Assembly: GCF_036588685.1 (NCBI RefSeq)
Contig: NC_086373.1
Span: forward strand, 110,918,001 to 110,982,000
Direction: 5' to 3'
From: Mytilus trossulus
Taxonomy: Eukaryota
Length of the DNA stretch: 64,000 nt
Position 1 is the first letter of the stretch. Each line of letters opens with the position of its first letter. Below the pieces are notes generated by a model. That model did no database searches. It had not been told where the DNA came from and worked only from the letters and a program-made list of their open reading frames with translations. The translations under genes were made by a program, and so were the position numbers. Below, piece by piece: positions 6,683 to 61,500 of the stretch.

Positions 6683-6763
6683 ATTATTCGTGTGTTTTTT
6701 TGTCAATTGTGTTCTCCTCTTTATTTACATTGTACTCCTGTACTGTTCTGTTGTCATATCAAT

Positions 6764-7072
6764 AGTTAACAAAGGTACCATGATTATAATTTAAGACGCC
6801 AGACGCGCGTTTCGTCTACAAAAGACTTATCAGTGACGCTCATATCAAAATATTAATAAAGCCAAACAAGTACATAGTTGAATAGCATTGAGGATCCAAA
6901 ATTCCAAAAAGTTGTGCCAAATACGGCTAAGGAAATCTATGCCCAGCATAAGAAAATCCTGAGTTTATCGAAAAATCGAAAGTTTTGTAAACAGGAAATT
7001 TATAAAAATGATCACAGTATTGACATGCATGTCAACACCGAAGTGTTGACTACTGGGCTGGTGATACCCTTG
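6764..7072 (-). mobile_element. Retrozyme-like unit, family 1, hammerhead with mutated core (6796-6841)
   Basis: Minus strand gcgtca CTGATAA gtct-tttgt-agac GAAA cgcgcg TC tggcgt; the G8 position is A. Confidence 0.8.
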
Positions 7073-7381
7073 GGCAAATAGTTGTAAAATCATACTGGAC
7101 TCACTCTGCACGTATACAGCTCTAAATGAATTAAACGAGTAAAAGCTCGGAATCATTAAAAAAAAATTTAATTCGATAATGAACATAGTTTCTCTTACCA
7201 ACCATTAATAATAGCTAAAAGTACTCGTGAAGAAAATTTGTTTTTGTCCCGGCTTCTAATAATATCTTTATGGTGTAAATTTTACATTGAGGTTTTATAA
7301 AAGGAAATCACGAAATCACCAACATTCGTACTGACTTCGTATTTAGAAAATCACATCTGTAACTAACATAAACTTTTAGGT

Positions 7382-10649: not shown

Positions 10650-12960
10650 TTAACATTTGATAACAATTATATATATATATAATGTAAATGAATGCTTCAC
10701 ATATTCTTGTATGCAAAAGATAATTCCTGAAAATTTAAAATGTTAAATATCACAAACTCTTAGAACAGTTTTACCAACTAATTAATTTAATTAACAAAGT
10801 GTATTTTCCACCATGAGATTTATTAAGTGTCATTTGTTGATTAGGCAGGATTTGACTGCATACATTTACGTGTTTCAGACTTACATTGTTTTGAACACAT
10901 CTGTATTCTTTGTATTCACCGAAAACATGAGCAAGGTCAAGTCCATCTAGATATTTCAAAAAGTCAATTCTACCTCCTTCCCTTTGAATATTTTCATTTG
11001 CATTTGCACTGCTTTTTGTGATAGGCAATGCCAGCTAATTACATGAAACTGTTTCAGGAGCTGACAATGCAAGAATTGCTGTAGAATAAATTGCGGGCAT
11101 TGCATTGTTTTTCTTGACGAAATTGTCTGACAATGTCTAACCCATTTCAATTTTCTCTGAATTACCAAACCGTTGATACACAATTAGGGATTGGATACTT
11201 TTATGTCCAGTGACGGCGACAATCAGGGCTGGACCATACATATTCTTTGATAAAAATGTAGCACATGTAGCCCTAATAGAATGATTTGTATAAATCTGTG
11301 ATAGGTTAGCACTTTTACTAAGATTGGACATGGATACTGTTAACTTCTTTTCTCCGACTGGTTCATTGCAGTACCAGGTATCATCTGTTCTGTAAAAACT
11401 GGACCGAGGTCACTGCCATAATCTGTTGTTTTTTTAGATTAAGCTTTGACACATACAATTCGATTGAGCTCACAGGGCAATAAGGTGAATCTGCAAATAA
11501 AAGGGGTTCATGTATTTTATAGTCGTCATATTTGTTTTATTTTTTTATTTTAGATAATAAGATTTAATATATTTGGTTAATATTGTGATATTTATTAGTC
11601 TTAATAAATGTGAATGATTTTTGTGTTTTGAAAATATTATTATGCATGTCCTCGTACTGTTTGTGTTTATTATTCAATAGCTATATACATATGTACGTGT
11701 ATATGTTGAAATTAAATGATGAACATTATGATAACACCATGACAAATAATGTATATAGATATAGGAAGATTTGGTATGAGTGCCAATCAGACAAATCTCC
11801 ATTCCAATAACAATTTAAAAAAGTAAACGTACATGAATGTTTAATTTTTTAACCTGTAAGCTGTTCCTTTAGGTAAATAATTATTTATCGGCCCTATTTT
11901 CTGATGTTATAAATTTGAATGACCCGTACTTTTCTTCTGTATTAAGACAATTATTGCCTATATAATTTATTACACCCAATAATGGCAGTATGTTTTATTT
12001 TAATATTAAAAAAGAGGTTAAATTTATTTTACCTTTTACTTCTGGCTTGACTCCCAAACTCTGTTCTTTGTCAGTTTCCCTGTGTTTTTTGTCATCTCAT
12101 CCTCCATCTTTCGTACAACCTTTAGTCCTTTAGGTCCAGGGTCCGTCTCTACACCAAAAGTTGTTTTTGTCATCGAATAAAGTTGAGAATGGAAATGGGG
12201 AATGTGTCAAAGAGACAACAATCCGACCAAATAAAAAAACAACAGCAGAAGGTAACCAACAGGTCTTCAATGTAGCGAGAAATTCCCGCACCCGGAGGCG
12301 TCCCCCAGCTGGCCCCCAAACAAACATACACTAGCCCAGCGACAATGAACGCCATACTAATTTCCGACTTGTACACAAGAAACTAAAATTTAAATAATAT
12401 AAATTAAATGCATGTTCTCCTTTCCCCTCCTGCAAAAAGATCATTCTTATGTCAAATTGTACTTTTGTGTACAAGCCAGATGAAGTATTTGTTGCACAAT
12501 AGATTGAACTGTACAACTTGATCAGGTCAGTTTCATTGATACTGGGATAGTGATCAGTGGTACCCAGACCCATTCTTTTCAGTTCTGAAGTCGCTGCTTT
12601 GACATTTACATTTGCATCGTTAAATGCAGCGTCCTTTATTATGCTAAATGTTTTGTTGTAAGGGGGCGACCTTAAATATCTATTTAATCCATATCGAATG
12701 TTCTCAAGTGACGAAATCTTGTAGTGGTTACCGTCTGGTTTTCTTGCATTCATATGAAATTGCCCCAATATTTCATTCAGGCGAAGTTCATCATATTCCT
12801 CAAATCTTATGTCCATTTCTGATTCTCTCAAATATTCCCTGAGGGTGTTTCCTGCCTTTTTGTTTGATCTTAGTGTGTTTGCTGCATTTATTTTAAGCCG
12901 TGTGTCCATTATCTCTTCATCCGTCGTCTGCCCAAAACGTTTTAAGCTTCAAGTCGCCAT
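10650..12960 (-). pseudogene. Crypton tyrosine recombinase (DUF3504/KCTD1/ZMYM-related), two exons, disrupted
   Basis: MAT*SLKRFGQTTDEEI...ARKPDGNHYKISSLENIRYGLNRYL...(frameshift)FCRRGKENMHSMTKTTF...DEMTK(N)HRE | GT-AG intron 12032-11491 | DSPYCPVSS...LWQ*P...WYCNEPVG...YTNHSIRAT...VTGHKSIQSLIVYQR. All catalytic R, HxxR, H and Y positions are visible. Stops, frameshifts and an insertion at 12176-12406 disable it; the 3' end is approximate. Confidence 0.88.
12176..12406 (-). repeat. Helentron/HINE-like non-autonomous fragment inserted in the Crypton ORF
   Basis: Removing it restores ENMHSMTKTTF; no TSD; ends gttgtctctttgacacattccccatttccattctcaactttatt. Confidence 0.6.
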
Positions 12961-14980
12961 CTTGCAGACGTAAATACATAAAAGGGAAGCAACTCCGAAT
13001 TTCTTTTTTTTATTAAGTCAATGGTACAAGGGAGATAATTCCAATTGACGTGATAAAAAATTGTACTGAAATTTATTAGGACAATATCAGCCAATCAAAT
13101 TGCGAGAAATTACTCTAAATCAGGATAAAGTTTTATATCAGTACCCATCAATTTGACTTATAATGATGACTCGGCCCTTTTTTCAACACAGTACTGTTCT
13201 CAGATAAAAATTTCTATTTTTTGTGATAAAAATCAAATGTTCTTATCAAATGCTTCAAAATAGTATAATATGTCTGAAGTCTGATTGATTTTGATTTCCC
13301 TTGCTATCTTGAGTATAGGGAAAACGGTACTATTTATTCTGCCATAGGCGACAATACTTACATTTTCTAAATTTACCAGTTTTTATAATAAAAACCTGGA
13401 TAAAACAGTTCTGTGTGGTGTAAGTACTTTATTACTGTATTCTAAAAATTGAAGCCAAATAGTATCATAACCAATTTCTACCGGAGTTTGTTTATGTTAT
13501 CTATGCCCAACGTCACTTTGCACCAAATTTATTAAATTTTGGAAGCCTTTTCAAATAATTCTCTAGAAAATATTTCAATAGGTTTTAAAATTTATATTGT
13601 AAATTTACACACTGTAGTTTTTCATAGATAAATAAAAAAAAATATATTGTACCCTTACATCCAATCACAGCGCTTCTAATTTGACTTCCTTCACATGTCT
13701 TGGGTACACAAAAGGCCAACCTAATGCTGGGAAAATGTAATACCACCATTTTCCCAATAAAACATAACGTAATGCAGTTATTGTAAAAAATCTTAAAAGG
13801 TGTATTCTAAATTGAGAGACACATTCAGGAATGAATCCCATCCGTATTTTGTCTGTTCATAATTATGTTTGAATACACTGGGTTATTTGTCTATAGCTGT
13901 ATATTTGGTTTTAGGAAAGACTAATAGTTCTTATCTTATTATTTTATATAATGGGTTATGATGTTTAAAACATAGTATAGTACATAAGTGTTATAGATGG
14001 ATGCATTAATTTGAAATCGTGTATAGAGAAGATGCGACTTTTGAAAAGATGCAAACTACTGTTGCCTTAAAATGAAAAACATCTAATCAAAATCAAAATA
14101 ACATTTCACCCCTTTTCACCATTTTACCGCCAAAATTTGTGTTTTAGGGCAACATATTTTTTTTTATCCGTTACCTATGTTTTTTATTTGCTCATTAATT
14201 GAAACTACATTTCAGCTTTTTATATTACAGTTTTTGACCAAGTGTCATATAACGTTTGTTTGTTTATTCCGTTGAAAATATGTGAACTTCTCAATTTTCC
14301 CTATCATTTCAATGAAATATGGTCTCTTTTACATACCTGTTTAAAAGTAAAATGTTGAGCTTGAATGGTCCGTGATCCCCTATTTTTGTTTCGACAAATT
14401 TGATTAACTTTCTGTAAAGAATTTAATAAAAAAAAATAACCGAACTTCTGGTAGAAACCTCGAATAAGCCCGAGCCACCTTAAGTATCACATTTCCTTCT
14501 GAAATTTGAGAAAACCTCATGCAATGTTACGTGCAGTTGAGTACATCAAATGTTGATATTTTTGACAAAACAGTGTATTATCATTACCATGTGTTATGAT
14601 ATTTCCTACGTAAAAACAACATTGTCAGAACAGAATATTTAGCTAATGCTGGGGATTTGTTTTTATCAGTGTTTATTTCGTGCTTATGCGTATAGAATAC
14701 AGTGTATGTAGACTAATAATTTATGTTCATGAAGGAAAAAAAGGGTGTCCATGAAGATTTTTAAATCTGTTAAAGTCAACATTTCCTATGCCCTCGATCA
14801 ATATCATTTTCCTGTGTGAACATACCTCCATATCTCTATACTATCACGTGATTGGTATTGGTGATTGTTTTACCGAATTACATGTGTTTTATCGTAACAC
14901 TCAAGTTTAGGTGTGATTATACCAGTGTTCAAAAGTCATAAATCGCTAAAAAGAATTCAAATCAACATTGCATTCTAATT

Positions 14981-15425
14981 GGTTATCAAAGGTACCAGGA
15001 TTATAATTTAGTACGCCAGACGCGCGTGTCGTCTACATAAGACTCATCAGTGACGCTTATATCAAAATTTATAAAGCCAAACAAGTACAAAGTTGAAGCG
15101 CATTGAGGATCCAAAATTCCAAAAACTTGTGCCAAATACAGCTAAGGCTGTGATAAGAAAATCCTAAGTTTTTCGAAAAAATTTAAAGTTTGTAAACAGG
15201 AAATTTATAAAAATGACCACATTATTGATATTCATGTCAACGTCGGAGTGTTGACTACTGTGCTGGTGATACCCTCGGGGACGAAACGTCCACCAGCAGT
15301 GGCATTGACCCAGTGATGTATTAAAATAGTTATCAAAGGGTACTAGGATTATAGTTTAGTACGCCAGACGCGCGTTTCTTCTACATAAGACTCATCAGTG
15401 ACGCTCATATCAAAATTTATAAGAC
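14981..15425 (-). mobile_element. Retrozyme-like tandem array, family 1: two hammerheads 348 nt apart
   Basis: Hammerheads at 15013-15057 (GAAA changed to GACA) and 15361-15406; the segment gttatcaaag..taccaggattataatttagtacgccagacgcgcg is repeated. Confidence 0.88.
15361..15406 (-). ncRNA. Minimal type I hammerhead ribozyme
   Basis: gcgtca CTGATGA gtct-tatgt-agaa GAAA cgcgcg TC^tggcgt. Intact core, stem I gcgtca/tggcgt, palindromic stem-loop III; the first stem II pair is a G.A mismatch. Confidence 0.8.
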
Positions 15426-17149: not shown

Positions 17150-17420
17150 ATCTATTATGTAGTCAGTTTATAAAATTTACTGTTTGCAACGGTATGTTTT
17201 ATTCTAAATTCTAAATTCTAAATAATATTTATGAATGTCGTTGTCCCAGGTGAATAACACAGGCCGTGTTGGTCGAGACTTTTTTTTAAAAACTTTTGAT
17301 CCTCGATGCTTTTTAGCTTTGTACTTGGTTTGGCTTTCAAACTTTTTTCCATCTGAGCGTATCTGGGAAGTCTTGTATGGACGTGGCGCACGTCTGACGT
17401 ATAAACAGAATTTAATTTCA
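17150..17420 (+). mobile_element. Highly decayed retrozyme-like unit
   Basis: tttgatcctcgatgctt...tttgtacttggtttggcttt followed by the degenerate hammerhead gagcgtatctgggaagtcttgtatggacgtggcgcacgtctgacgt. Confidence 0.6.
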
Positions 17421-20656: not shown

Positions 20657-20950
20657 AAAAAGTAAAATCACAAAATTACTGAACTCAGAGGAAAATCAAT
20701 ACGGAAAGTCCATAATCACATGGCAAAATCAAATAACGAAACGCATCAAAAACGAATAGACAAGAACTGTCATATTCCTGACTTGGTACAGGCATTTTTC
20801 AAATGTAGAAAATGGTGGATTAAACCTGGTTCTATAGCGCTAACCCTCTCTCTTTAATAACAGTCTCATCTAATTACGTTATATTTACACGATGCGTTAA
20901 ATAAACAGTCACAATTAATACAATAGTCAAAATATGGTTACATCAGTATT
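20657..20950 (-). repeat. Retroelement 3'-terminal repeat, inverted near-copy of 40285-40577. Relatives at 6053-6330, 21060-21180, 31095-31280, 49660-49780
   Basis: Shared aatgcctgtaccaagtcaggaatatgacagtt...tgagttcagtatttttgtgattttactttt. Confidence 0.8.
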
Positions 20951-21741: not shown

Positions 21742-24700
21742 GTAAGTGTATATCAAACATAAAAGATCAAGACGTCAGTATGTTACTGATATTCAAATAT
21801 CATAAACCAATGAAGAAAAGCAAATCAAAATGATGGAATTACATTATACTAAAAACAAACATCTGATTGCACCAACAGGATACGTGTCTCCTGTTATATA
21901 TCATGTGTATGTATTACCCAAAATGCAAATCTTCATTAGTTCAAAATGTCATTTTCCGGATTACGTAGCAATCCGCAAAACTACTAAAATATCAACTTCA
22001 AGGAAAATAAAGATAACATCAATTATCTGTGCATTATACAAAGCATGTTATTATCTTTACATATTGTGTGTTTGTCTTGCGTCATTTAAATTATTTTTTT
22101 CTCACAAACTTGACATATATCGCCGATTTTTTTACACGTCTAGTACTTTGGGTCATAGATCTGTAAAACCTAAAAATCGCACCAATTTATATTATGTTAA
22201 TGAAATTCTTAGATAACATTGTCGACAGTAATAGCATATACCTTTTTTTTTAAGTTCATGTTTTCCGTTTGCATATCTATATAGTTACAAATATTTGTGG
22301 CACAACTTTTCTTTTAAGTTTTGGACCACAAACATGTTTTAACACATTCAAACATAATTGGTTCCTGTGGTTCAAATGACAATGAATTGGGCACTCTTTT
22401 TTTAAGAAAATAAAATACTTCCTAAAACTGTTCGAAATATTTTAAAATTCCTATTAAAATGGACCTATGGCTTGATCAACCTAATACATTAAAGGAGTCA
22501 TTAGTATTTGGACTATTGTTATGTTATAAAACAAATTGACTTTTTTTGTTTTAAAATTTTCACTTCAGTATGTATCCTGATATACTTATATATCAACATA
22601 TAGACATATTTTTAGCAGATTCAGTGTAAAATGAAATAGAAAAATCTTAACAACCATAATCCTGAAGAACTTTTAGAACAACAAAAAGTGTCAAAGTACT
22701 TGATTTATGGTAGAAAAATCGAAATGACAAAATACTAAATGCCGACGAAAATTTAAAAAATGAGAGTCCCAAGTTATTAATTTGTATACACTCTTCTTTT
22801 AGTGTTGACTCAAATAAATAGAGTGTAATTATTACAGCATAATAAGTTAACTTCATTTAATTGGTCATTGATCAATTTTCTGTTGTCTACTTTTGTTTGT
22901 TAGTCAGTTGCATAAGCAATAGAGTAACTAAATTTAAGATATGGAGTGACTAATTGATTCTGAGTTGAACATGTCTGTTTTAAAATGACCATAGTTTCTT
23001 AATTGTCTTTTGCTATTTTGGCTATGAACATTCCCCAACGATTTAACATAGGATATCTTTGAACAACTAAGTAAACTTTTTCTGAAATTAATAAAGTTAC
23101 ATGGCAGGTCAATAATTTTACATAGGTATCTGACATGGTTATACCAACTGTTGTAATTATTGTCATCTTAATCTTTTGAGGTCTGTAAGGCTTTATACAA
23201 AAAGGAGTTATCGCGCATATTTTCATTTCTTAAATAACAATTCAATAAGTTTTTCACAGAACTTATAAACATAGGAAATATACCCAGTTCAGACAGTACA
23301 GCTGCTTTTTCTATTTACACCTAAAATAAATTGTGTTATTTTATTTGTAATTTAAATAGTTCAAGATCTCAATAATTGCTTACAGTATACAAAGGATTGA
23401 GAGAGATCTCAAATAATGTTCATGTAATAAGATTTAGAATTATAAATCAACAACGGACATCATCTGAACATAAGCATATATCATATAAAGCACATTAAAT
23501 TATATTTATTGTACACATTTTGTTTGACCGTGAAAATCTGGTCTACAACAATTTAGTTATCAAGTAAATATAAATTAGATAACTGAATTTGCAAGGTTTA
23601 TATAACCAGCATATGAGTAAGACCAGTATATAAATGATTTTGTGAACTGTTATCAATAAATGAATGTGTCTCACCCTTGGTAATTCCATACAAAACACAG
23701 TTGTAATGAAAATTATTTTTGACAGACAGAACTTGAAAATGTCAATGTATAAACATGGAGAATCCATTATATAGGGTATACATTCATTAGGCAAGCAACA
23801 ACACACCTAAAAGATATCTTTATCGCAAATATTCTGTTAAAATTAACAATTGCTTATTGTTCTGACGATACTGCTTTTGGACGAAATATAATCATGGTAT
23901 CTATGATGAGTTTATCTACAACCACTGGGTCGATGCCTCTGCTGTTGGAGTTTTAATTCCCCGAGGGTATCACCAGCCCAGTAATCAGTACTTCTCTGCT
24001 GCCATGACGTATCATTGGTATGGTCATATTCATAAATTAACTGTTTACAAAACTTTTGAATTGCTGAAATACTAAGGCTTTTCTCACTCGGGAATATATT
24101 GCTTTAGCTGTATTTGGCAAACAATTTAGGAATGTTGGTTCTCAATGCTCTAATTTCGTACTTTATATGTCCATTTTCACCTTTCGAGCGTCACCGATGA
24201 GTCTTTGGTAGACGACATGCTCGTCTAGTGTGTATACACAATTTAATCCTGGTATCTATGATGAGTTTATTTGTTAATTTAAGGAGGTGGATATATAGAA
24301 AATCATAGAATTTTGTTCTGAATTTGCTACATTTGATGTTTTTTTCCCCAATTTATTTGTACGGTTTATCAGATCAGGAACATTATCATCAAATTGCTTT
24401 ATATTTTGTTGTTTATATATACCTTAAATGTCTATTTTCTTTAGTTGTATGGTGGTTTTCTTTTAATCATAACATTACAAACCCGTAAAAGTCTGAAATG
24501 GTCTATATCAGCACTCGACTGTAGTATTGGCCAGTACTCAGTCATTGTATACTCGTCTGAACCATGCTCGACTTAGTCTGAGCCATGCTCAACCTAGTCT
24601 GAGCCATATGCTCAACCTAATCTGAACCTTACTCAACTACGTCTTCATGAATTTAAAAAGGACACGTTTGTTTTGTAAAATTTAACATAATCACGATAAC

Positions 24701-33700: not shown

Positions 33701-36700
33701 CATGTTAACATCAATGCACATTCAAGTTTAATCGTACCATTTTGGTGTATCGCAATTTAGCGTAATACGCCATCGTACTTTAGCAAAAACAATCATCGCA
33801 CTTTAGCGTAGACCATCGCACTTTAGAGTACCATAGCACTTTAGAGTCCTACATATATATTTTCGTCTTTTTTAAAATTATATCCACATATTGATATATT
33901 GTATATTTGTAGCTCCTGATATTCCAATAATCACTGGTCCGACGTTTATACTTGATGGTAACTCTGTAACGTTAACATGTACATCAACAGGTGGCAATCC
34001 TGCACCCACAGTATATTGGTACCGTGTAAATAAGTTGTTAGATAATTCATACAACACTACTAATGGAGTTACAACAAACACATATAACTTTGTTGCCAAC
34101 GGAAGTCATCACATTGCTGTATTTGAATGTCGGGTTAATAGTCCAGATTTAGAGAGTTATCTGAGCGCAACATGGTACTTCCAAGTTTACAGTATGTACC
34201 CTTATCTGCCAGAGAAAACATGAACTTAATCACAATTTCTTAAGCACTTTTAAAAAAAAGTAGATTCATACAACAAAGTTGATCATACAAACGTATACTG
34301 ATATATTAAGATAAGGCATTTTCATATGAATGGCAACCAAAGTCAATATATTTAAAATTCGAATTAACAAATTCCTTGTACCAGAATGAAGTAAAGCAGG
34401 ATATTCACAAACACCATATTTTCATACACACACTGTTATTCAAGAAAAAACGTATGTTATCATAACAAAAACTATGTTATCCAGCACATTATTTATGTAT
34501 GTTCCTGTCCCAAGTCAGAAGCATGACATTCAGTGGTTGTCCTTTGTTTATGTGTTACATATTTTTTTTTCGTTCATTTTTTTTTATATAAATAAGGCCG
34601 TTAGTTTTCTCGCTTGAATTGTTTTACATTGTCATAGCAGTGCCTTTTATATCTGACTATGAGGTATGAGCTTTGCTTATTGTTGAAGGCCGTACGGTGA
34701 CCTATAGTTGTTCATGATTGTGTCATTTTGGTCTCTTGTGGACAGTTGTCTCATTGGCAATCATACCAAAACTTCTTTTTTATATTTCGACAGAAACTAT
34801 GTTATTTCAACATAAATTATATTATTTCAAAAGAAACTGTGATATAATGTAATAAACTATGTTATCGCAACAACATATGTGTATGTCAATAATTAGACAA
34901 AACATTAAGTGCTATTTTGAAATACTTTAAAATTGAATATAACATGATGCGTTTAACTTCTTGTAGTCGAACCAAATCAACCGACGTTGACTGGATCTCA
35001 ATCTCTTTTAACTGGCACTACATATCAATGGACGTGTATAAGCACAGGAGGGAATCCTTCGCCAACAATTACTATGAGGATCGGCAACAGTCAATTCAGT
35101 ACTGGTATCACACAATCGTCAGTAATACAGTCAGATAATACCCATACTGTTACCTCATCACTGTCATGGACACCAAGTATCAGTAACAATGGTCAGACAC
35201 TTTATTGTGATGTACAACATCATGAAACACGGGGAAATAGCCTCCAGACAGTCAGTCTTCAATTAACAGTTATTGGTATGCTAACATATAAAGCAGTATA
35301 TGACTGTTCAATGTCATGACTCGGTTGACTGAAACAAATACTTGTCACTTAACAAAACTGAGGAAAACACATCAACTATGAGAGGAAAACAACAGAACAA
35401 AATCTCACTAAAAAAAAGAATCATAACTTAATACTACAGACGCGCGTTTCTTCTACATAGACTCATCAGTGACGCTCAGATAAAAAAAAATTATAAAGCC
35501 AAACAAAAACAAAGATAAAGAGCATTGATGACCCAAAATTACAAAAGGTTGTGCCAAATAAGGCTGAGGTAATCTATTCCTGAGATACAAAAATCCTTTT
35601 TTTCTCTCGAAAAATTCAAAGTTTTGTAAACAGGACATTTATAAAAAGAACCATGTAATTGATATTCATGCAAACACCGAAGAGCTGACTTTTGGGATGG
35701 TGATACCCTCGTTCTTTAGCAGTGGCATCCCAGTGGTGTAAAAAGTTATCAAAGGTACCAGGATTTTAATTTATTACGCCAGACGCGCGTTTTCAATACA
35801 TAATACTCATCAGTTACGCTCAGATCAAAAAGATATAAAGTCAAACAAGTAAACTTGACAAAGCCAATATAAAAAGAAACCGATAATTTTATACAAAATA
35901 CTATAATTCTGACTTTTTATAGGTCATTTTAAGACAAACGTTTTTTTCACCTGGTTTTATTCCTACCCAAACCTTCTGCTTACATTTCAATGTTATACAT
36001 ATCTTCAAAATGACAACATTACGGGACAGGAATACAACACAATGCAAGTACATTAAAAACGGAGAAATACATAAATAATAATACAATAGTAAATGTAATA
36101 ACGTCAACAGTAGTATACCGCTTTCCGAGACTCATAAATCAATAGATGAAAAACAAATCCAAGTTACAAACTGAAACTGAGGCAAACGCAAACTGAGGAG
36201 AAAAACGACACAACAGAACCACAACATTAAAATGTAATACACACACAAACTAACAATAATATAACAATGGCCATTTTCCTGACTTGGTGCTGGACATTTT
36301 AAGAACAAAATGGTTAGTTGAACCTGGTTTGTGGCATGCCAAACCGCCCGCTTTTATGGCAATGTTAAATATAACATTAAACTGACATTAACAAATAAAT
36401 GGTAGAAACTATAGGATAGAGAAACACACGAATATAAGCTAACAAAATGTACCTCGTTTAAAATTTAATAGGACAGACGTGCGTTTTGTCCACACAATAC
36501 AAACCAGTGACAATCGAAAGCCAACACAGGTAAAAGTTGAAGAGAAATGAGGAATAAAAGTTCTAAAAAGTTGTGCCAAATATCGCTAGGGTTTGCTGCC
36601 TGGGATAAGAAAATTCTTATTATTTAGAATAATTCATACTTTAGCAAACAGTAAATTTTATGAAAAAAATACTGTATAATAGATATACATGATAAAACTG

Positions 36701-39700
36701 AAGTGGTGACTAACTACAGTACAACAATGGACACATTACATAAACAACCTAATCCAGCACATAAAATTACACAGCCGAGTTAGCCAAAGCCTCAACGCAC
36801 AATGTGACGTCACATTTGAAATTCTACAAAAACACACTTTTGTATTTGTAAAAAGATTTCCCAAAAATTAGATAGAATTAGGACTGATTTAAGATTAGAT
36901 TTGTTTAACTGATTTTATATTTATAAATGACAACGAAAATTACAATACTTATTAATATCAAATTGTGGTAGTAATTAGATTATTAATTGTATTATCTAGC
37001 TATCTTGATGTTTCTTCTGAATCAAACTGTAAACCAAATATATCGTATAAATTTCGTTTAACCACACGATAACAGCGAACACACTTAAATTTATTTATGA
37101 CAGCACAATATAATTTTAAACACACGTACAGTGTGCACGTGTATGAGCATAATGTATCCACTGAATGAAGCACATGTAATTGATCACCATACAACGGCGC
37201 ATACGGTATGTTACTGCTAAACGGGACATTGATAATGGGGCAGTTGAAATTGTCCGGTTTACTATCTTTGTCAATTTTGGCGAAGAGATCAAAGTATAAA
37301 GCAGCCTTTCTACTATCAGTATATAATTACTGGCTGAAATATGGGTTATTCAGTGAAAGCACATCCTCAATATATCAGCTGGATGTAAATAAATTTATAA
37401 AGGAATGTTTTAGTTTGATTATTAGACTCTATCGATGAATGTTGACGACCACTATCGTATCTCATAATTTAAATGTTACTGTCATTTCCAAATCCTTTTT
37501 CTCGGTGAATGATTTTTTGAATTCGCATTGAATGATGTTCCTACCATTTAATAATCTGACAAAAAATAAGGCTAGACTTTATATTTAACGGATAGAATGG
37601 AAACAAGTGCTAAATTCAATATTTCTTTTGTTATTTGCAGACCCGTTATCAGTGAATGCCCCTCAAACACTGTATCAAAATAATGTTGGCACTCTTGTTG
37701 TCTTGACCTGCCAAGTTATCGGAACAGCAACATATATCTCTTGGTACTTTAACAATCAAGTGCTTAATATTGCTTCTTCTTCGAAATATTCCAACGGCAA
37801 TACCATCAACCCATCATTGACTATATCAAACGTGGCTTTGGCTGATGGGGGACAATATTACTGTCAGGCAACCAATGGATTAACCACAGCCAACTCCAAT
37901 ACTATAACATTAACAGTTCTAGGTAATTCTTTATATTTTAATCTAACCAGTTTATTGATATCTTTGAGTTTAGAATATTTCGATATTGTTTTTAAAAAAG
38001 ACTAATCGCTTGACTATCAAATACACAAAAACTCATATTATTAACGTTACGAAAGACTAATAAATTGTTCTAATTGTGGTTTCGAAAGGTCAATTACCCA
38101 TTCTGTAAATCTTTTATTTTTCATTTTGCTTCAGAATGTTGTATATCTGTGTTTACAAAATGAATTTATTATTACATTAACGTCCAATTGTATATTGAAC
38201 CTTTATTATGTTGTCATTTATCTTATTAATATTGTCAACCATCTTTCCATTAAAGCACGCATACCAGTAGTAACAGTTTCTCAGCCGACCTACTCAGAAA
38301 CTACCGGACAGTCTGTTACCTTACAATGTACAGTCTCCTCACCAGATAGCACTCTTCAGTCTGTATCGTGGATTTTTAATAACGGTGCATCTTCCAATAT
38401 AATAACACAATTCAGCAATACAACAAAATATAGAGGAATAACAACTATCGTGCCGTCTCTCACCATATTGAATCTATCATCAACAGATATCGGAACATAT
38501 ACATGCACAGCAACAAACGCTATAGGAACAGGACGTAGCAGTGTAACCACACTCAGTGTTACAGGAAGTAAGTGATGTAGAGGCTCGATAACAGGCTTCT
38601 TTTATATGAGTATAAATGCATACTGTGTGAAAAAAATACTTCTTAGGTAAATTATTGCATAATGAAAAAAATGTATGTTTTTGCAATCAACTTAAGCTTT
38701 TATAACTTGCTTAGAACAGTGGCAATTATTTCATGCAAATCGAGGACGTAAAGACTTTAGCCTCAATCAGTTGAAGAGGATGTTTATAGATAAGTCTAGT
38801 AAGATATGGTGCATTGATTTGAAATGAGTGATCAACTGGAATTCAGAAGCTGCAAATTTTGTTAGATTCATAATTTCTGTCTTCTAGTTTCTATTAATGT
38901 TTGTGTGTTCTTCGCGTCAATGGAAAAACATAATAATAAGAACTTGTAAAGCTGAACAAAAAGAAGTAATGCAATGAGTAATAAGTTTACGATCGAATTT
39001 CCTCTTTTCTTGTTGTTCACCGAATATTAATGTCGAATATATTAAAAAAAAAAAAAAACATAGTTCCAGAAAAGATTAAATTTTTCAAATATTACACATT
39101 TATATTTTCTAGACACCCTTCATTCTTTATGATTGTTCAACTTGGATTGATATATCAGTAGGGGGATGGAAATAATATAGATTTTGCTTTTTCAGGTATA
39201 CCAACTGTTAATATTCAACAGTCGTCATATAATATAAACTATGGTAGTTCTATTGTCGTTGTATGTTCCGTCACAGCAAATCCAACTCATACAACAGTAT
39301 ACTGGCGAAAGATAAAGAATGGCGTTACCACAGATTTAAATGTAGTTAACAGTAACAACAAGTACAGTGGTTCAACAGTCAGTAACCCGTCTCTACAGAT
39401 AAATAACGTGGATTTTAATGACGAAGCCTATTATGTTTGCTTAGCTTCCAATAGTGTTGGTTCAGGACAAAGTTCGCAAACTTTCCTAGATGTCATTGGA
39501 AGTAAATTACATATTTAGGCATTAATGAACTAATATTTTTTTGTGTCTCGTCCTTTTTCTAAAAAAGTTCATCGGAAGGTACCAAGACCTTGTTGATAAA
39601 TATTCCGTATCAACTTCTCAAATAATACACGATGGTCTTGATGTAAAGATTCTGCGTACTGATGTTGTTTATCATCTTAACAACATGTTTTACTGTTCTT

Positions 39701-42700
39701 TCATTTGTTTTTGTTCTATTACTAATATTACTTTAACTGTTGAATGGTTTTATGTGATATCCGTTTGACGTGGCTCGGTACTTATACATCTCGTCAATGT
39801 GTGAGTATTGGCTTTCATTTGTTGGTGGTTTGTTTTGTATATACGACTCTTTGTATTTCTTTTGTTCTTATTACATGACTCTGTACTTTAAAAGATCCCG
39901 TCAGTATTATTTTGGTCTATTATATGTTATTATGATATATTTCTATTATGAATTACTATATACGTTGAACCACAAACGTCAAAATAATTCAATCGCGTAG
40001 GGGAATTAACTATTTTTGGATTCTCATAAATTCTACCTATAACTTTTGGACTAGTTTAAATCTCGGTCTATTTCTGTAATTTGTTCTTACATACTTTTGA
40101 TTTTTTAACTCTGTATGCTTACATTGCCTATGTAAATTTTAAAACTGTTTGTATGCACATTGAACGACAAATTTATGTGACGTATTCAAATTTTATGACG
40201 TCAGACACTCAAGTCAATCCATGTGTTCGTAGATAGATGTTTTTGTGTTCTGTTAAATATCACTTTTAAAATTGTTATGCGATGATGACTGATGTACCCA
40301 TATTTTGACTATTTTATTAATTGTGACTGTTTATTGAACGCATCATATAAATATAACGGAATTTGATGAGACTGTTATTAAAGTGAGAGGGTAAGCGCTA
40401 TAGAACCAGGTTTAATCCACCATTTTCTACATTTGAAAATGCCTGTACCAAGTCAGGAATATGACAGTTCTTGTCTCTACGTTTTTGATGCGTTTTGTTA
40501 TTTGATTTTGCCATATGATTATAGACTTTCCGTATTGATTTTCCTCTGAGTTCAGTATTTTTGTGATTTTACTTTTTGGATCAATGACTCTGTTTTTAAA
40601 ATATTACAACTAAGGTAGAATTCGAAGATGCTCGTCAAAGATTTGCATTTACAGATAATACTCATATCTTTGTAAAACAATGTTAGCATCTTATTATATT
40701 CGACAAATACTTGAATATTTGTACTCATGCTGTAGTTTACACCACAGTCCTATGTTAGGGGAGAAGTGATCGTTCCTGCACATGAAAAAATCTGTCACAT
40801 TATCCATGTGCGTTAAATAGAAATGTGATTGCTTGTGTTTGCTGTCTGTTATAAAAAAAACTTTTTTAATTAACAAATTACGTCCTGCGAGGGTCTTTTA
40901 TAGCTTACTTTATTGTATTGTAAATTTTAGTTGGCAAATACAATATATTTCTATAGTAGTTTTCACATCATACTGTGTCATCTTTATTTTTATCAATTGT
41001 TAATCTTAAAACTGTGTAAATGTAAAAGGTAAGACGAAAAGTTTAGAGATTTATTATTAAAGATATTACAGTTTTTAGCTCAAGGAAATGAAAATTCATA
41101 ATGAGAATGAAGGTAATAAAATGATAGATACTGAATGTAACAAACTATTTTCTTGGGCTTGTAAAGTCTCAAATATAAACGTATTTATCTCCTTGCTTTG
41201 TTCTGTTTGCAGACTTACTTACTGTTACCGTTCCTCAGTCATCCTACAGTGTTTTGATTGGTCAACAGGTAACCATACCTTGTACTGTTACCGGGACTCC
41301 TATTCAGACTAACCTGTTCTGGAGAAAGGTGGTAAATGGTGTTCCAACTAACGTAGATATAAATGGTAACAGTAGATATTCTGGAGGTACCACCTCAAGT
41401 CCATCGTTGACAATAACCAACACTCAGCGATTAGATGAGGGAACTTACGTGTGCTATGCTTCAAACACTATTGGGACATCAAACAGTCAAAATACATTTC
41501 TAGACGTTACTGGAGGTATGTATAATTCTTCGTAATGAAAAAAAAGATATTGTATGATTCACGATGAGAGAACTGTTCAAAAGAGTTCACCTGGGTGGAA
41601 ATAAGCAATTATTCAAAACGAGTAAGCCTTTGTTATGTTAATAGTATATTTTACAGCGCTTCGGACGCAATTAATTATAAAACGTGTTGTTTTCCATTTT
41701 TTAAATCACTGGGTCGATACCTCTGCTGGTGGACTGTCAGTCCCCGAGGGTATCATCAGCTCAGTAGTCAGTGCTTCGGTACTGACATGATTTAACATAC
41801 TGTACTAAAAATTGTCTGTTTATAAATTTTGAAATTATTATGAAACTAAGGTTTCAACTCCCTCAGGCAAAGTTGGCTTTAGACTAATTTGGCTATTTAT
41901 TTTTGGTATTTTTGACATATAGCTCTTCAACGATTTTCGGTAATTATACATCTTCGGATTTCAAATGTTTGGCTTTGAGCGTTCCTGATGAAGGTAAATG
42001 CAGAAAAGCGCTTCGGACGCAATTTATTATAAAACGTGTTGTTTTCCATTTTTTACAATTGTTTTTTTTTTTTTTTTTTTCTATTCGAACTCTTTGGAAC
42101 GCCATAACTGTCTTCTGATGTTGATTGTTTAATATGTTCGGTGCTTTATGCGTCATGTTCAGTAGTTTTCATATTATGTTCAGTTGTTTTGACATTCTGT
42201 TCAGTAGTTTTGACACTACGCTCGGTGCCTTGATTATTATGTTCAGAAGTTTCATTATTATATGCAGTGGTGTAAATTATGTTCGGAACTTCTGACGTTA
42301 TAATCAGTGCATTTTTCTTTATATATTCAGTACTTTCGCCATTATGTTCAGTAGATTCAATATTATTTGCAGTACATAATGTATTGGTCCCGGTTAATTT
42401 ATATTTGGTGGATTATTCATTATATTCAGTAAAATCATCAGTATTATACTCGGTCCAATGAACTATACGTTCAGCGATTGTATTATTATGATGATGCAGT
42501 AAAAGTCGGGAAATCAATAAAATGAACGGGGATATTTTTGACGAACGTTTTCTTTAAAGACATAATTTTTACGGGATGGAATGAACGTGGCAGAAATGAA
42601 AGCTGAATTTAATATTGGTTTGGTTAACGCTCCCACGCTTGCAATATTCACAAGAAAAAAATAACTCCTGACTTTATTTTAAAAATGTAATCATTGATGG

Positions 42701-45700
42701 ATTGTTGTTTTCTGAACCTACAGTGGCAAATATTTCACGCATATCTATGACGAAGAGAAGAATTTCAAACAAGAACTTTAGCAGTTGTGTGCGTTGTCGT
42801 TGGTATATCATTACTATAGAGCAACGAAAAAAAGACAAACAACAAAATATCAAATATCAAAACATTTTCTATAGTTTTTATATTCTTAGTAGGCAACCCT
42901 TTTTGTTGGTTGGTTGTACATATGACAACAACACCTTGTACAAATATTCTTTCATAAACAAGAACAGTTAAGTATATTAAACAAAACTGTCCGTCACAAT
43001 GACAACTCAGGGTTTGGAGTGGGGATAACGGAAAAGGGGGGTCTCTATTTCTTTCTTCTGTAATTCTTTTTGCCATTCTCATCTAAACAGTAAGAAATAT
43101 GCGTAGGTCAGGAATCTGATGTACAGAAGTTGAAGTTTGTTTTTGTAATTTATACGTGTTTCTCGTTTCTCGTTTTTTATATAGATTAGACCGTTGGTTT
43201 TCCCGTTTGAATGATTTTACACTAGTAATGCTGGGCCCTTTATAGCTTGTTGTTCGGTGTGAGCCAAAGCTCCATGTTGAAGGCCGTACATTAAATATAA
43301 TGGTTTACTTTTATAAATTGTTATTTGGATGGAGAGTCGTCTCATTGGCACTCACACCATATCTTCCTATTTTTATTCTTTAAATTATATTTCCCTTTTG
43401 AATTTTTCACTGCACTACAAAAATGAAATAATTGATCAAATTTGATTAGTATCTGGTTGAAGTCTAACACGGGAATATATAAATATTTCAATTTATTAAT
43501 AATTTTTGATAATAATTTGGATGTATGGGATACCAAGCAGCATCTCAGGTGAAATTATGTATATTTGATAATATTTAGTTTGTGGAAGGAGTTAATAGTA
43601 CAGAACAGATGATCATGAAGTTTTATAATACATACAGCACCATTCGTTATCCGACTTTAAGAGTTATCTGGAATCTGATAGAATAACATTTGATCACCAG
43701 AATTAGATTTTATCATTGATAACCAAATTGTATAAAAACAAATGCCTATCAATCTGTTGTTTTGGAGAATTTTAAAATATATCTAACATTTATAAGAAGC
43801 GAACAAACTTGTTTTATCAACGAAAAAAAATCGAGAACAATTTCATCCGTCTTTGAGCATTTGTCTCCCAGACCTTAGCAATAAATTGTTGTTTTAAATT
43901 GTAATGGATTGTGGATTCTAAAAATATATTTGAAACCGCGGACGGGTGAATCATGCTGGCGAAAGAGACGTTTTGATTTTGCAATTCCCTTTACGAAATT
44001 TTGAAATAATAAAGACACTAAGGTTTTAACTCCCTCAGGCAAAGTTGACTTCGACTTATTTTGTTCTTTTTGTTGTCCTTTTTGGACAGATATATATAGC
44101 TTTTCAACTTTTTCTGTTCTCATACATCTTTGTTTCCAAATATCTGAGCGTAAGTGATATAAATCGATAATAGCTCTTTTAGGCGAGTGACTTTAACCAT
44201 AAAATTAAATTTTTAATGCACCTACCTACCACACGGCTAAATTATATATCATTTTAAAGCTACACATATGTACTATCTGTTTTGCCCGGTCGTAAAAAAA
44301 TCGTACGGTGCAATTTCCGTCAAATCGAGATCAAAGACCAATGACGAATAAGTGCATATTTTTGAAGATTTCAGCCTGATTGCATTATATGACTTTTATA
44401 TACTTAATTCACAAATGCAAACAATTTAAACTTTTAGCAGAGCGATTAACAGTCATTATTCAAATGCCTTTTTTAAATATTTAAAGCGTGTTTTTGACAG
44501 AGCTCACATGTTTCCTGAAATTCGAGTAAAAGTTGACAAAATGTGTGAAAACCCAAATTTTTCTTTCTGGTGCAACTGCTTATCACTTTAAACTAAGTAA
44601 TACCCTGTAATGACTATTAAAGAAGTTTTTGACATCATAAAATTTCCTAAAAGTATGCTTACTTCTAATCAAACAGCAAATCATAACAACTCATACAGTT
44701 GCCAAAATTCCGCCATCTGCGAAAACACTGCTTTTAAGAATTTCTTCCTATTTAAACATTGTATGTGGTCAATATACGATTTTTAAATAAACAAATTTTT
44801 AAGAATCTGAAAAATTTAGAGTAAAAAAATATGTGCGCGAATCATCTTATTGCTTGAAATAAAGGGGGTTAAACTAAGATAATTGCAATCTGCATTGTAA
44901 CTACCAGTCTGAAATAAACATATTTTGACTTTTCTAATTGTTTGATTTGTAGCTTCATTATAAATATTGTTGTAGTGAAAAGACCATTTTATTTATTTTA
45001 TGTGAATTGAAAATTTCGACCAAAATAAATAAAAATAAATTGATGAAAATTGAAATTTCAAAGAATTTCAAAAAACTAGTAAACACATTATAAAACTTGA
45101 TTTCTTGATTGCTTAAATTGCGTTGTTCATTGTTTACATGTATTAATTCATAAAATAAGAATAATTTTGAAGAAAAAATATCCATTTATACGCAAAGATT
45201 CTAGTTACAACTAGACTTCCTGAATAGCTTGAATGACTAGTTCATTTTTCATACGAGGATGACTTCATGCAAGAGTTTCTGATGACGTCTGAAAAGAAGC
45301 TTTCATTATCTTGAAACTTCACTTTCCACTATATATAGATGTTGTCATCTCACTAAAGAGCGCAACATTTGTGACAATGTTGGACTTGTATTTTCCAGTG
45401 AAATTGGAAATAAAAGACTCAACAGATATGATTTACTCCATCACGTATCTTGAAATCGATGATGAGGGTTGGTTGAGAAAAAGTTTTACGACAAGAGAAA
45501 TGTGCATAAAACAACCCATAGAACCACCCCTTACTACAAAATTATAAACCTCTCATTTCCATCTAACAACATTATAGCAACGCTTGCATATCTATACTAC
45601 TAAAGGCGGAGACCGATTTTATTGAGCCGCATCTCCTCTGAAATAAAGGCAACTATAGTATACCGCTATTCAATAGTGATCAATCGATTTACTAGTAACT

Positions 45701-52499: not shown

Positions 52500-52535
<36 letters not shown>

Positions 52536-58500: not shown

Positions 58501-61500
58501 ATAAATAGCGTGCTGTAAATTACCTTAAATCTCCACCTAAGTACGTTAGAGTACATACGCTATAGCTTAAATGCTTGAAGTTGTAAATGGCGTGCTATAA
58601 CGTGCATAAAAAAAATCAACATAACAATGTGAGAGTAGATATAATTATTTGCTTCCGACAAGACCTGCTCCTGGAACCGGTACTGTTACTTTTCATTTCT
58701 GCGGTAACACTGCCAAACACTGCATACTTTAACTATAGCTTATAAAATTCAGAGAGGTTTAGAGAGGTGATTATATCTCTTAAGTATCAAACAAGGATAT
58801 CAGATTATTATCATAAAACACGGAGCATCTTTAGCGTAAAGAAATTAGCATCTACCCACCTGTTCAGTGTTATTACAGAATGCTAATATATTTTTAAAAT
58901 CATACAATATATTTTATGTTTGTTATATCATTATTTTATATCAAATATGAAAAGAGATCAATACAGGCAGGATGCATCCTCGGTCAAGAATGAGATATAT
59001 ACTTAAATTAATTGTTTGATTTTCTAAGCCCTTTTGAGATAGTTTAACGCTTGTTAATTTCTAATCATAACGAATCGGATCGAAAGGGTACCTCATAAAT
59101 ATACATAGTTCACGAAAAGATTGATTTTTACAATCATGCAAATTTACATTCTTCTTTATTTATGATTGTACAAGTTGGATAGATATATCAGTCAGAAGCT
59201 GGGAATAATATAGATTTTGACAATTGCAGATATACCAACTGTTAATATACAACCATCGTTATATAATGTCAATTATGGTAGTTCTGTTGTCCTTGTATGT
59301 TCCGTCACAGCAGATCCAGAACATACAAGAGTTTCATGGCGAAAGATAAAGAATGGCGTTACTACAGATATAAATGAAGTTAACAGTAACAACAAGTACA
59401 GTGGTTCCACGGTCAATAACCCGTCTCTACAAATAAATAACGTCAATTTTAATGACGAAGGACATTATGTTTGCTTTGCTTACAATAGTGTTGGCATCGG
59501 ACAAAGCACACAAACGTTCCTCGATGTCTTTGGAGGTAAATTACCAATGCCTTTAAGAAACAGTATATGTCTATGTGTTTTAAATTACTGTTTCAATTAT
59601 TTTAAATGTAACAAATAATTTGGAAATCAATGCACAATGTTGAGACTTTCATTTACAGATCATATTCATATATTTTTAAAAACAAATTTAGCATTTTATA
59701 TGTATGATCGTCAAAGTATTGAAGAATATAATAGTTTTTACATTTTGAACCGTGTGTCTCTAGTAACATTATATAATTATTTTTGTCAGATATTCCCGTG
59801 GTTACTTTACCTTCCAACGTCTATTCGGTACCGCTTAGCGGTACAGTCACATTGCAATGTACAGTTACCTCTAACCCATCCCATACCTCTGTCACGTGGC
59901 AAAGGATCGTTAGCGGCGTACTCACTACAGTTACAGTTGATGGATCCAGAATAATTGGTAGCACTGTCAGTACACCATCTCTTACTATCAGTAATGCTGT
60001 ATCTGGTGACGAGGGAAATTATATCTGTACTGCTACCAATATTGTGGGAACCGGATCCAGTCAACAGACATTCTTAGACGTCACAGGTGGTAAGATTCAT
60101 GTGTGCTTTGTTTTGTTGTATATGTGTAATTTTCGTCAATTCAAAACTCTGTTCTTGTCTAATTATCTTCTACCATTTATATTTTTGTTTAACCATATGA
60201 TATTAATGGAACTTCATTATATATGTTTTTCAGACATTCCTACAGTTATTGTTGGTCAGAATCTATACTACGGTAACTACGGACAAACTGTTACAATGAT
60301 ATGTACAGTACAAGCTAATCCAACAGAAACAAGTGTTTACTGGAGAAAACTAATAAACGGACAGATGACAAGTATAGATATGAACAATGTGCGATATACA
60401 GGTTCGACTGTAGGTTCACCCTCACTATCCATCAGTGTTTTGGAGTTGTCTGATGAAGGATACTACCAATGTTATGCCCAGAATATCGTGGGTACCGGAG
60501 GAAGTCAACAGATATTTTTAGATGTTATTGGAAGTAAGTAAACGAAGTAAGAATAGGTACCTATATATGTATTATACAAAACTATAAGTGTAGTGAATCC
60601 TAATGTTTGAGTGTAATTTTCTGTTGTAGTGATTCCTTATGTTTGAGTGTAATTTTCTGTTGTTCAAACAAAAAACTAAATTCGAAATGACAAGCTTCAG
60701 AATTCTGCATTTCGATAAAAAAAAATGACAAGCATCGTGATTATTTAAACAAAATGACAAGCCTTACATTACTTTTTATATGAAAGCAAGTTGTGAAAGA
60801 ACTTGATAGGAAAAATATTTACCATCAACACAAAGTTCTCTATTATCGAAAAAAAACAATAACCAAACATCAAAGCTGGGTCCATATTGGGTCAACAGTT
60901 GAAACAGGATTTTAAATCTCTATTATAACGTTATATTGGACTTCTATTTGAGAAGATAACATTAACTGTACCAATTTTCCTACACCATATGCGCATTTCG
61001 ACAGTACATGTATCTTCAGTGATGCTCGTGGCCAAAATATTTGAAATCCAAAGCTTATATAAAAGATAAAGAGCTATTATCCAAAAGGTCCCAAAAGTAT
61101 AGCCAAATTCGTGAAAGGAATCAGAGCCTTGTATGAGGGGGAGAAAAGGTGTTCGGTCTCATATATAATTTCATATATAGATTATAGAAATTTTTATGGA
61201 TAATTATATGTGTTGATAAAGTTTGAAGTTAAGTACAATTGTTATCATTGTTATAACAATCTATAAGTTGACTAATGATATGTTTATTCATCTTGTTACC
61301 CTCAAAGCAAGACCAGTGGTTACCATTCCCCATTCGCAGTATAGTGTTACTGTTGGTTTTTCCGTTACCATGGTTTGTACCGTATCATCCAATCCTCTTC
61401 ATACCTCAGTTTATTGGCAAAAAGTTGTAAATGGGGTATCGACGAACATCAATCTCTCTCAGACGAATAAATACTCGGGATCTACGATCTCATCACCATC

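What the first reader, a model, noticed from the sequence alone, without database searches (positions are those of the whole stretch)
14981..15425. Dense population of hammerhead-bearing ~350-nt tandem units (non-LTR retrozyme-like), at least three families
Seen: about nine hammerhead motifs or remnants (6796, 15013, 15361, 17355, 24186, 35437, 35776, 41979, 60982). Measured periods are 348, 355, 343 and 352 nt. The three families share the core but differ in a palindromic stem-loop III (cgcgcg, agcgct, tgcgca), with compensated stem I (gcgtca/tggcgt, gcgttc/ggacgc, gcatca/tggtgt). Established: tandem non-coding units with minimal type I hammerheads are non-LTR retrozymes that yield circRNAs and are thought to be mobilised by Penelope-like elements; they are reported in mussels. 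Inference: the distinct palindromes could act as family-specific dimerisation codes, since minimal hammerheads cleave as dimers through helix III.
Basis: partly seen in the sequence, partly recalled or inferred. Interest (0 to 1): 0.7.

Follow-up and report, generated by a model that had tools for sequence, protein, structure and literature searches.

The report
Mussel retrozymes riding Naiad transposons
The window holds decayed copies of three related ~350-base repeats that carry a predicted self-cutting hammerhead RNA and are likely the circle-forming "retrozymes" already described in mussels; all three share a predicted RNA stem-loop and a fixed end point with a Naiad jumping gene, which likely copies them, while their differing palindromes likely reflect drift in a pairing helix rather than a selected family code.

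Summary
Observation real, interpretation partly right. Three related families (A, B, C) of ~350-nt units with type I hammerheads occur in the window. The hammerheads are canonical, not minimal. None of the window's copies is perfect, and the density is ordinary: 37,534 exact cores genome-wide, 1.85 expected per 64 kb, 2 seen. The class is known in mussels (PMC7229834). Beyond that, A, B and C share an ~60-nt stem-loop with the 5' end of a young Naiad Penelope-like element in which I found no hammerhead; all 19 pairs are kept and 3-4 are compensated. Copies of both end a few bases 5' of it, the likely reverse-transcription start. This scan found that link before on other pieces of this genome and on other genomes; I reached it before looking. 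Added here: two further families (D, E) carry C's hammerhead on an unrelated 550-580-nt body with Neptune-like (TA)n ends, and a 7 x 131-nt mini-Naiad array has no hammerhead. Five palindromes, including changes inside the loop, support dimer pairing. A selected 'code' is not supported: arrays are family-pure, and any compensated change gives specificity. Family A RNA is abundant and strand-biased.

The parts
14976..15422 (-). Family A retrozyme copy, 1.26 units (period 348), 90% to a young genomic unit; 3' end 43 nt past the cut site
15361..15404 (-). 5' hammerhead (type I): core letters intact, helix II closing pair lost (C11.1 to A); predicted cut after 15367
15234..15320 (-). Naiad-shared stem-loop domain plus UUCG hairpin, damaged in this copy (fold z -2.0 against about -4.1 in young copies)
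15013..15056 (-). 3' hammerhead with A14 changed to C, predicted inactive
6761..7074 (-). Family A 5'-truncated copy (92%), hammerhead G8 changed to A; 3' end at +41
17291..17405 (+). Old family A fragment (75%), degenerate hammerhead
23862..24262 (+). Old A-like subfamily copy (76%), two hammerhead remnants, period about 355; domain at 23918-24005
35417..35851 (-). Family A copy, 1.2 units (82%, period 343), two damaged hammerheads; between Ig-domain exons
36445..36712 (-).
41655..42057 (+). Family B copy, 1.14 units (95%, period 352): half hammerhead at 41655, intact domain 41702-41788, near-intact hammerhead at 41979-42020; 3' end at +43
43990..44130 (+). Old family B internal fragment (73%)
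60956..61142 (-). Family C 5'-truncated piece (187 nt, 92%), single hammerhead with G10.1 changed; 3' end at +32
40286..40577 (+). 3'-end fragment of a Naiad-type element (80% to the young element), ending at the shared end site; similar pieces at 20657-20947, 6034-6183, 49657-49773

Best explanation
These are decayed copies of three related ~350-nt hammerhead repeat families, likely mussel non-LTR retrozymes, that share a predicted stem-loop and a fixed 3' end with a Naiad Penelope-like element whose reverse transcriptase likely copies them. Shown: the families form pure head-to-tail arrays, family A RNA is abundant and strand-biased, and copies end 0-16 nt (mostly 4-5) 5' of the shared stem-loop while their 5' ends scatter. 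Inferred: arrays are transcribed; hammerheads cut the multimer, probably as dimers paired through the palindromic helix III with the next copy on the same RNA; monomers are ligated to circles (shown for the mussel family in PMC7229834, not for these exact units). The Naiad protein would bind the stem-loop, nick A+T-rich DNA and start cDNA just 5' of the stem-loop, running back across one or more cut sites on a circle or an uncut multimer, which gives copies of 0.2 to 16 units. The palindromes likely differ by compensated drift under selection for self-pairing; family specificity would be a by-product.
For: Arrays and counts. Fixed 3' ends: 78 of 83 at +32 to +45; in loci picked by motif alone, 77 of 85 lie 0-16 nt before the stem-loop; 8 of 13 in a family from another genome. 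Naiad identity: N-terminal GIY-YIG, C-terminal RT, CxC, DKA, lengthened zinc finger, 4,276-nt unit (criteria in PMC8557442 section 6). Shared domain: scores 36-40, 0 of 100 shuffles reach them for each of A, B, C; C-terminal-endonuclease elements give no signal; a model built from retrozymes alone hits 17 Naiad 5' ends and no other element class in 373 kb; 19 of 19 pairs kept, 3-4 compensated. Naiad ends: 13 of 40 best hits stop at one base, 2 nt before the stem-loop; 23 of 47 ends lie 2-8 nt before it. A 7 x 131-nt array of the Naiad domain ends at the same site. Precedent: internal initiation with the binding region on the 3' side (PMC11167929). RNA: 0.07-0.13% of records, 5-10-fold strand bias, no pile-up of ends at the cut site.
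Against: Each model hit to the Naiad is marginal (20-22 bits, E 0.05-0.15), and the shared sequence is about 45-60 nt. Only four Penelope-like families were sampled (149 endonuclease hits, 50 loci fetched), so another helper may exist. Binding, initiation, cleavage and circularity were not tested, and short reads cannot tell circles from multimers. The strand reading assumes the usual library chemistry; run X24 shows no bias. No target-site duplications: 1 of 63 at 7 nt or more, 0.7 by chance. Family B has an A-A pair closing helix II and about tenfold fewer reads. Identity with the published mussel units is unverified because the supplement could not be read. 24 of 47 Naiad-like ends lie elsewhere, mostly in old copies of 70-87% identity.
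Confidence: 0.75

Rival explanations
1. The palindromes are a selected family code: they diverged so that co-expressed families do not trigger or poison each other's cleavage in trans.
For: In-register helix III: homodimers -13.3, -10.1, -10.5 kcal/mol against -1.7 (AxB), -2.1 (BxC), -5.7 (AxC); ABC against D/E 0.3 to 10.5. Five palindromes in one genome. C and D/E share a hammerhead but differ in the loop. A, B and C reads occur in the same RNA runs.
Against: Any compensated change in a palindrome gives specificity without selection for it. The natural partner is the next unit on the same RNA, and arrays are pure (179 of 181). A, B and C keep the same GCGC loop; unconstrained heteroduplexes remain at -7.8 to -8.9. 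E-type bodies carry two different palindromes (7 and 8 loci). One B-type hammerhead of 100 listed carries A's palindrome. The largest family (A) has an older subfamily that reads show with the same hammerhead region.
Confidence: 0.15
2. The shared stem-loop is inherited from a Naiad ancestor, but a different reverse transcriptase now moves the units.
For: Short shared stretch; incomplete sampling of helpers; retrozymes as derivatives of terminal repeats is the model of bioRxiv 10.64898/2026.07.22.740005.
Against: Young copies of both (95-100% identity) still end at the same place relative to the stem-loop, and neither targets (TA)n, whereas the C-terminal-endonuclease elements and D/E do.
Confidence: 0.1
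3. The units are terminal-repeat fragments of an unseen hammerhead-bearing Penelope-like element, not independent replicons.
For: Truncated Penelope-like copies also show fixed 3' ends and scattered 5' ends (PMC8557442 section 6).
Against: Pure 350-nt head-to-tail runs of up to about 16 units in one 10-kb locus; the only link to a sampled coding element is the stem-loop. I did not scan all retrozyme loci for ORFs.
Confidence: 0.06
4. Satellite DNA spread by DNA-level amplification, with hammerheads as relics.
For: Long arrays with array-specific variants; all window copies are damaged.
Against: Thousands of dispersed copies with one fixed end, compensated RNA helices, strand-biased RNA. Local expansion may still lengthen some arrays.
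Confidence: 0.04

Closest known systems
Mytilus galloprovincialis non-LTR retrozymes (Cervera and de la Pena 2020, PMC7229834; parts 1-4 of 6 read, supplement unreadable)
   Same: Type I hammerheads in ~350-nt tandem units, low G+C (36-39%), several families, abundant RNA, Penelope-like elements in the same genome.
   Different: The paper gives two hammerhead families and ~5,000 motifs; here at least five families and 37,534 exact cores. It names no helper clade, stem-loop or fixed end in the parts read. Sequence identity not checked.
Xenopus retrozymes as non-autonomous Penelope-like elements (Li, Clavereau, Pollet 2026, bioRxiv 10.64898/2026.07.22.740005; parts 1-3 of 5 read)
   Same: Retrozymes share sequence with terminal repeats of Penelope-like elements.
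   Different: Frogs, where only Neptune and Poseidon were detected; no mollusc sampled; no cis-element or end mapping. Here the partner is a Naiad without a detectable hammerhead.
Naiad elements (Craig et al. 2021, PMC8557442; section 6 and 12 passages read)
   Same: The helper meets the clade's protein diagnostics, size and lack of a canonical hammerhead.
   Different: No (TA)n targeting in this family's flanks; no retrozyme passengers or 5' stem-loop described in the text read.
Poseidon from Anolis, PAc (Frangieh et al. 2024, PMC11167929; parts 1-2 of 4 read)
   Same: Order hammerhead cut site, internal RT start in AC-rich sequence, protein-binding region 3' of it; genomic ends mark the start.
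   Different: Autonomous, another clade; no sequence comparison made. Hammerhead cleavage was dispensable there.
Canonical and minimal metazoan type I hammerheads (Cervera and de la Pena 2014, PMC4209133; parts 1-2 of 4 read)
   Same: Short helix III with palindromic loop, dimer model.
   Different: These are the canonical form; a minimal form occurs in this genome in a C-terminal-endonuclease element (L220).

Membership tests
Non-LTR retrozyme | Type I hammerhead in each unit | tested here: met
   damaged in all window copies
Non-LTR retrozyme | Tandem units of 150-450 bp | tested here: met
   350-356 nt arrays; window copies 1.1-1.3 units
Non-LTR retrozyme | Low G+C, non-coding | tested here: met
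   36-39% G+C; no open frame of 85 aa or more over 14976-15422
Non-LTR retrozyme | Abundant transcription | tested here: met
   Family level only, in four runs whose species label is that of a DNA holder: A 0.02-0.13% of records, B about tenfold lower, C seen as loose ends. This locus not tested.
Non-LTR retrozyme | Circular RNA | tested here: inconclusive
   Reads run through the cut site and from unit end to start; fits circles or multimers
Non-LTR retrozyme | Self-cleavage | not testable with these tools
   Shown for a mussel clone in PMC7229834
Non-LTR retrozyme | Target-site duplication (described as 'when present') | tested here: not met
   1 of 63 against 0.7 by chance; optional feature
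Non-LTR retrozyme | Same sequence as the published mussel units | not testable with these tools
   Supplement unreadable
Minimal hammerhead of Penelope-like elements | No or 2-nt helix III insert, helix II 7-8 bp, extra base before 10.1 | tested here: not met
   6-nt insert, helix II 4 bp
Naiad (helper, L213) | N-terminal GIY-YIG, C-terminal RT, CxC, DKA, zinc finger lengthened in mussels, 3.4-4.4 kb | tested here: met
   (RT weak in Pfam, E 0.045; YIDD at 900). No tree built.
Naiad (helper, L213) | No canonical hammerhead | tested here: met
   0 hits in 4,276 nt with a relaxed scan that finds L220's motif; two one-mismatch core boxes in the non-coding part, neither in a fold
Non-autonomous Naiad partner | Shared cis-element and shared end | tested here: met
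Non-autonomous Naiad partner | Copied by the Naiad protein | not testable with these tools
   Needs an in vitro or cell assay

The most novel reading that the evidence does not exclude
Retrozymes are modular parasites of Penelope-like elements: a helper-specific RT-start signal plus an exchangeable hammerhead. One hammerhead module sits on a Naiad-signal body (C) and on an unrelated Neptune-signal body (D/E), and a bare Naiad signal can already form tandem mini-arrays, showing how retrozymes are born. The ~60-nt stem-loop would be the first defined RNA recognition element of a Naiad reverse transcriptase, and the five palindromes may insulate co-expressed families.
Probability: 0.4. Interest if true: 0.72.

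Novelty: new variant of a known kind. Interest (0 to 1): 0.52.

Why it matters
How animal retrozymes get copied back into DNA is open: the literature names Penelope-like elements as candidates, with sequence links only in frogs. A compact, covarying stem-loop shared with a young, intact Naiad, next to a shared end point, names the enzyme, the signal and the start site, and makes the step testable with an existing assay design. Three families under one signal and two more under another give natural controls for both helper specificity and dimer pairing. The locus itself is an ordinary dead copy.

Tried and rejected
Rfam at gathering scores: 0 hits in the window. Pseudoknot (telomerase-like) reading of the central domain: rejected; the second stem is broken in the Naiad and in family F, and all six sequences fold as one nested stem-loop. 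Antisense second hammerhead in family A: rejected; the look-alike is the reverse strand of the domain, lacks stem I and is absent from B and C. Polymerase III promoter boxes: a resemblance recalled from memory, not tested. Rod-like circle: whole-unit circular folds are unremarkable on the sense strand (z -1.2 to -1.6 for A-C, 30 shuffles). Alignment A1 misplaces the Naiad rows by 3 nt, so pairs were counted by pattern instead. Target-site duplications: none. Enrichment of 5' ends at the cut site: 5 of 36 long copies within -10 to +3, about 1.4 expected; a weak hint only. Selection on middle-pair double mutants: about 38 of 100 listed are palindromic, 33 expected (hand count); none. Rewired hammerhead in this Naiad (lead e1-9508098; PMC10085705 outline and abstract only): not found. 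Sequencing-run search: no RNA holder listed among indexed rows; raw-read rows were laid instead. Metagenome scan: 44 loci, of which 19 are G+C-rich chance matches and were dropped. Literature: searches found no paper linking mussel retrozymes to Naiads or proposing a palindrome code; subscription journals and unread supplements may hold one.

Full report
1. What is there. The stretch 14976-15422 is a 1.26-unit copy, on the minus strand, of a ~355-nt repeat with a type I hammerhead at each end. The window lies on contig 1 of a 1.30-Gb animal genome whose large contigs are numbered 1-14. A mussel host is my inference from that and from a mussel-type motif in the helper protein (paragraph 5). Exact hammerhead cores number 36,036 (control 13) plus 1,498 of family B (control 4). 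That is 1.85 per 64 kb; the window has 2, so it is not unusually dense. None of the 11 window hammerheads that aligned is perfect. The 15013 motif has lost A14 and the 15361 motif the helix II closing pair.

2. Families. A (palindrome CGCGCG, 354-356 nt), B (AGCGCT, 351-352) and C (TGCGCA, 350) form pure arrays elsewhere and are 70-72% alike over most of the unit. With helix I of 6 bp, helix II of 4 bp and helix III of 2 bp plus a palindromic tetraloop they are canonical, not minimal, by PMC4209133 (parts 1-2 read). B is odd: an A-A pair closes a 2-3 bp helix II, a trait shared with a 343-nt family F in another genome's contigs. Searching for cores with both outer loop bases changed gave 2,301 hits (control 53); by hand count 42 of the first 100 are TCCGGA and 26 TCTAGA. 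These are families D and E, 550-580 nt. They match C only at the hammerhead (89-97% over 30-37 nt) and nowhere else at E below 0.01.

3. The palindrome idea. In a lone hairpin the four loop bases cannot pair, yet the loop changed from GCGC to CCGG to CTAG and stayed palindromic; the half-way forms are 1 of 100. Family F keeps a shorter palindrome. A lone two-pair helix III is predicted unstable (+2.4 to +4.8 kcal/mol) and the homodimer stable (-7.4 to -13.3). This supports dimer pairing, which PMC4209133 already proposes. Against a need for dimers, a single-hammerhead mussel clone cut at about 0.1 per min (PMC7229834). In the catalytic register, mixed pairs lose 5-11 kcal/mol among A, B and C, so specificity is plausible. 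A selected code is not needed: neighbours in arrays are of one family in 179 of 181 cases, with 2 unclassified and none mixed; A, B and C differ at one pair; and E bodies carry either of two palindromes.

4. A fixed end. Copies end at +32 to +45 past the cut site in 32 of 35 A, 20 of 21 B and 26 of 27 C insertions, while 5' ends scatter (similarity-picked loci, 85% identity or more). In 100 stretches picked by motif position alone, ends lie 0-16 nt before a conserved stem-loop in 29 of 31 A, 43 of 48 B and 5 of 6 C. Family F does the same in 8 of 13. RNA reads from other individuals break off into unrelated flanks at the same place. The stem-loop folds alike in A, B and C (z about -4.1, 0 of 200 shuffles); 6 of 31 predicted pairs show two-sided change among 13 copies, mostly in the UUCG hairpin. 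Because copies cross the cut site, often many times, the template must be a circle or an uncut multimer.

5. The helper. A GIY-YIG search gave 149 hits; I fetched 50 loci. One family has a 1,056-aa frame with N-terminal GIY-YIG, CxC, DKA, a lengthened zinc finger and a C-terminal RT in a 4,276-nt tandem unit, the diagnostics of Naiads in PMC8557442 (section 6). Just before its start codon lies a homologue of the stem-loop with one inserted hairpin. Local scores of 38, 40 and 36 exceed all 100 shuffles each; four regions of C-terminal-endonuclease elements do not. A model built from 13 retrozyme domains hits 17 Naiad 5' ends, each weakly (E 0.05-0.15), besides 10 retrozyme copies and 2 reverse-strand overlaps. 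All 19 stem pairs hold in both; 3-4 changed on both sides. Naiad copies end 2-8 nt before the stem-loop (13 of 40 best hits at one base; 23 of 47 ends). No hammerhead was found in this Naiad. Neither it nor A-C target (TA)n. D/E end at +374 to +377 in 12 of 19 cases, into (TA)n, with the same short end motif as the Neptune-like elements; that helper link rests on the motif and target alone. L431 is an array of seven 131-nt units made of the Naiad domain and end, without a hammerhead, stopping at the usual site; it is a single locus and could have grown at the DNA level.

6. Expression. Four raw RNA runs were laid on one young A unit and one B unit. A drew 5,693, 6,366 and 9,822 reads from 7.3-8.7 million records in three stranded runs, with a 5-10-fold bias toward the hammerhead strand over the domain half if the usual chemistry holds; the fourth run is unbiased. 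No pile-up of ends is listed at the cut site and depth runs through it. B is about tenfold lower; its depth halves near the cut site, where variants cluster, with no end site listed there. This shows family-level transcription, not circles and not activity of this locus.

7. Mechanism. Shown: anatomy, arrays, shared domain, shared ends, RNA. From the literature: circles and self-cleavage of a mussel family (PMC7229834); internal RT initiation with a 3' binding region, marked by genomic ends, in another Penelope-like element (PMC11167929). Inferred: dimer cleavage in cis, ligation, Naiad binding and priming 5' of the stem-loop, rolling copy.

8. Novelty. The class is known in mussels, and a 2026 preprint links frog retrozymes to terminal repeats of Penelope-like elements. 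Seven searches found no paper on a Naiad partner, this stem-loop or a palindrome code; the unreadable supplement of PMC7229834 may bear on family identity. Earlier notes of this scan report the Naiad link from seven other places; I had it before looking (note), and they are not independent support. New in this report are the five-family comparison, the hammerhead shared between bodies with different helper signatures, and the mini-Naiad array. Verdict: new variant of a known kind, interest 0.52.

Noticed in passing
window 33876-63624 (+): Exons of a multi-Ig-domain gene (two C2-set, then many I-set), several of them recent duplicates; the retrozyme copies from 35.4 kb on lie between its exons.
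   Followed up: partly
L121-L150 (e.g. G000:C1:1504984-1505595): Families D/E: 550-580-nt hammerhead units with palindromes TCCGGA and TCTAGA, hammerhead nearly that of family C on an unrelated body, ends in (TA)n like Neptune-type elements.
   Followed up: partly
L431 (G000:C12:27544285-27545095): Seven 131-nt tandem units of the Naiad stem-loop and 3' end, no hammerhead; a two-copy case with period 140 at C10:46617705 was not fetched.
   Followed up: partly
L265, L283, L271 and related metagenome contigs: Family F in another genome: 343-nt units, same stem-loop, B-like helix II, 4-nt palindrome with a compensated variant.
   Followed up: partly
L220, 3' untranslated region: Minimal hammerhead with a U4-to-C core variant in a C-terminal-endonuclease element; the L217 family has a more decayed look-alike.
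   Followed up: no
window 53258-54317 (-), 52384-52710: Broken C-terminal GIY-YIG Penelope-like remnant next to an inverted repeat around a (TA)14 run.
   Followed up: no
window 11137-12948 (-): Fragments of a tyrosine-recombinase gene (PF00589 hit), probably a Crypton-like transposon remnant; the label is recalled.
   Followed up: no
window 42095-42922 and 47931-48907: Two inverted copies of an element with an internal 21-nt tandem repeat.
   Followed up: no
L189, L190, L194 (550-578): A 29-nt match to family A's 3' tail inside the terminal repeat region of one Naiad subfamily.
   Followed up: no
G000:C1:21639277-21639747 (L147, L148): A further hammerhead-like core with a non-palindromic insert, twice in inverted orientation, in 3 of 100 listed hits.
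   Followed up: no
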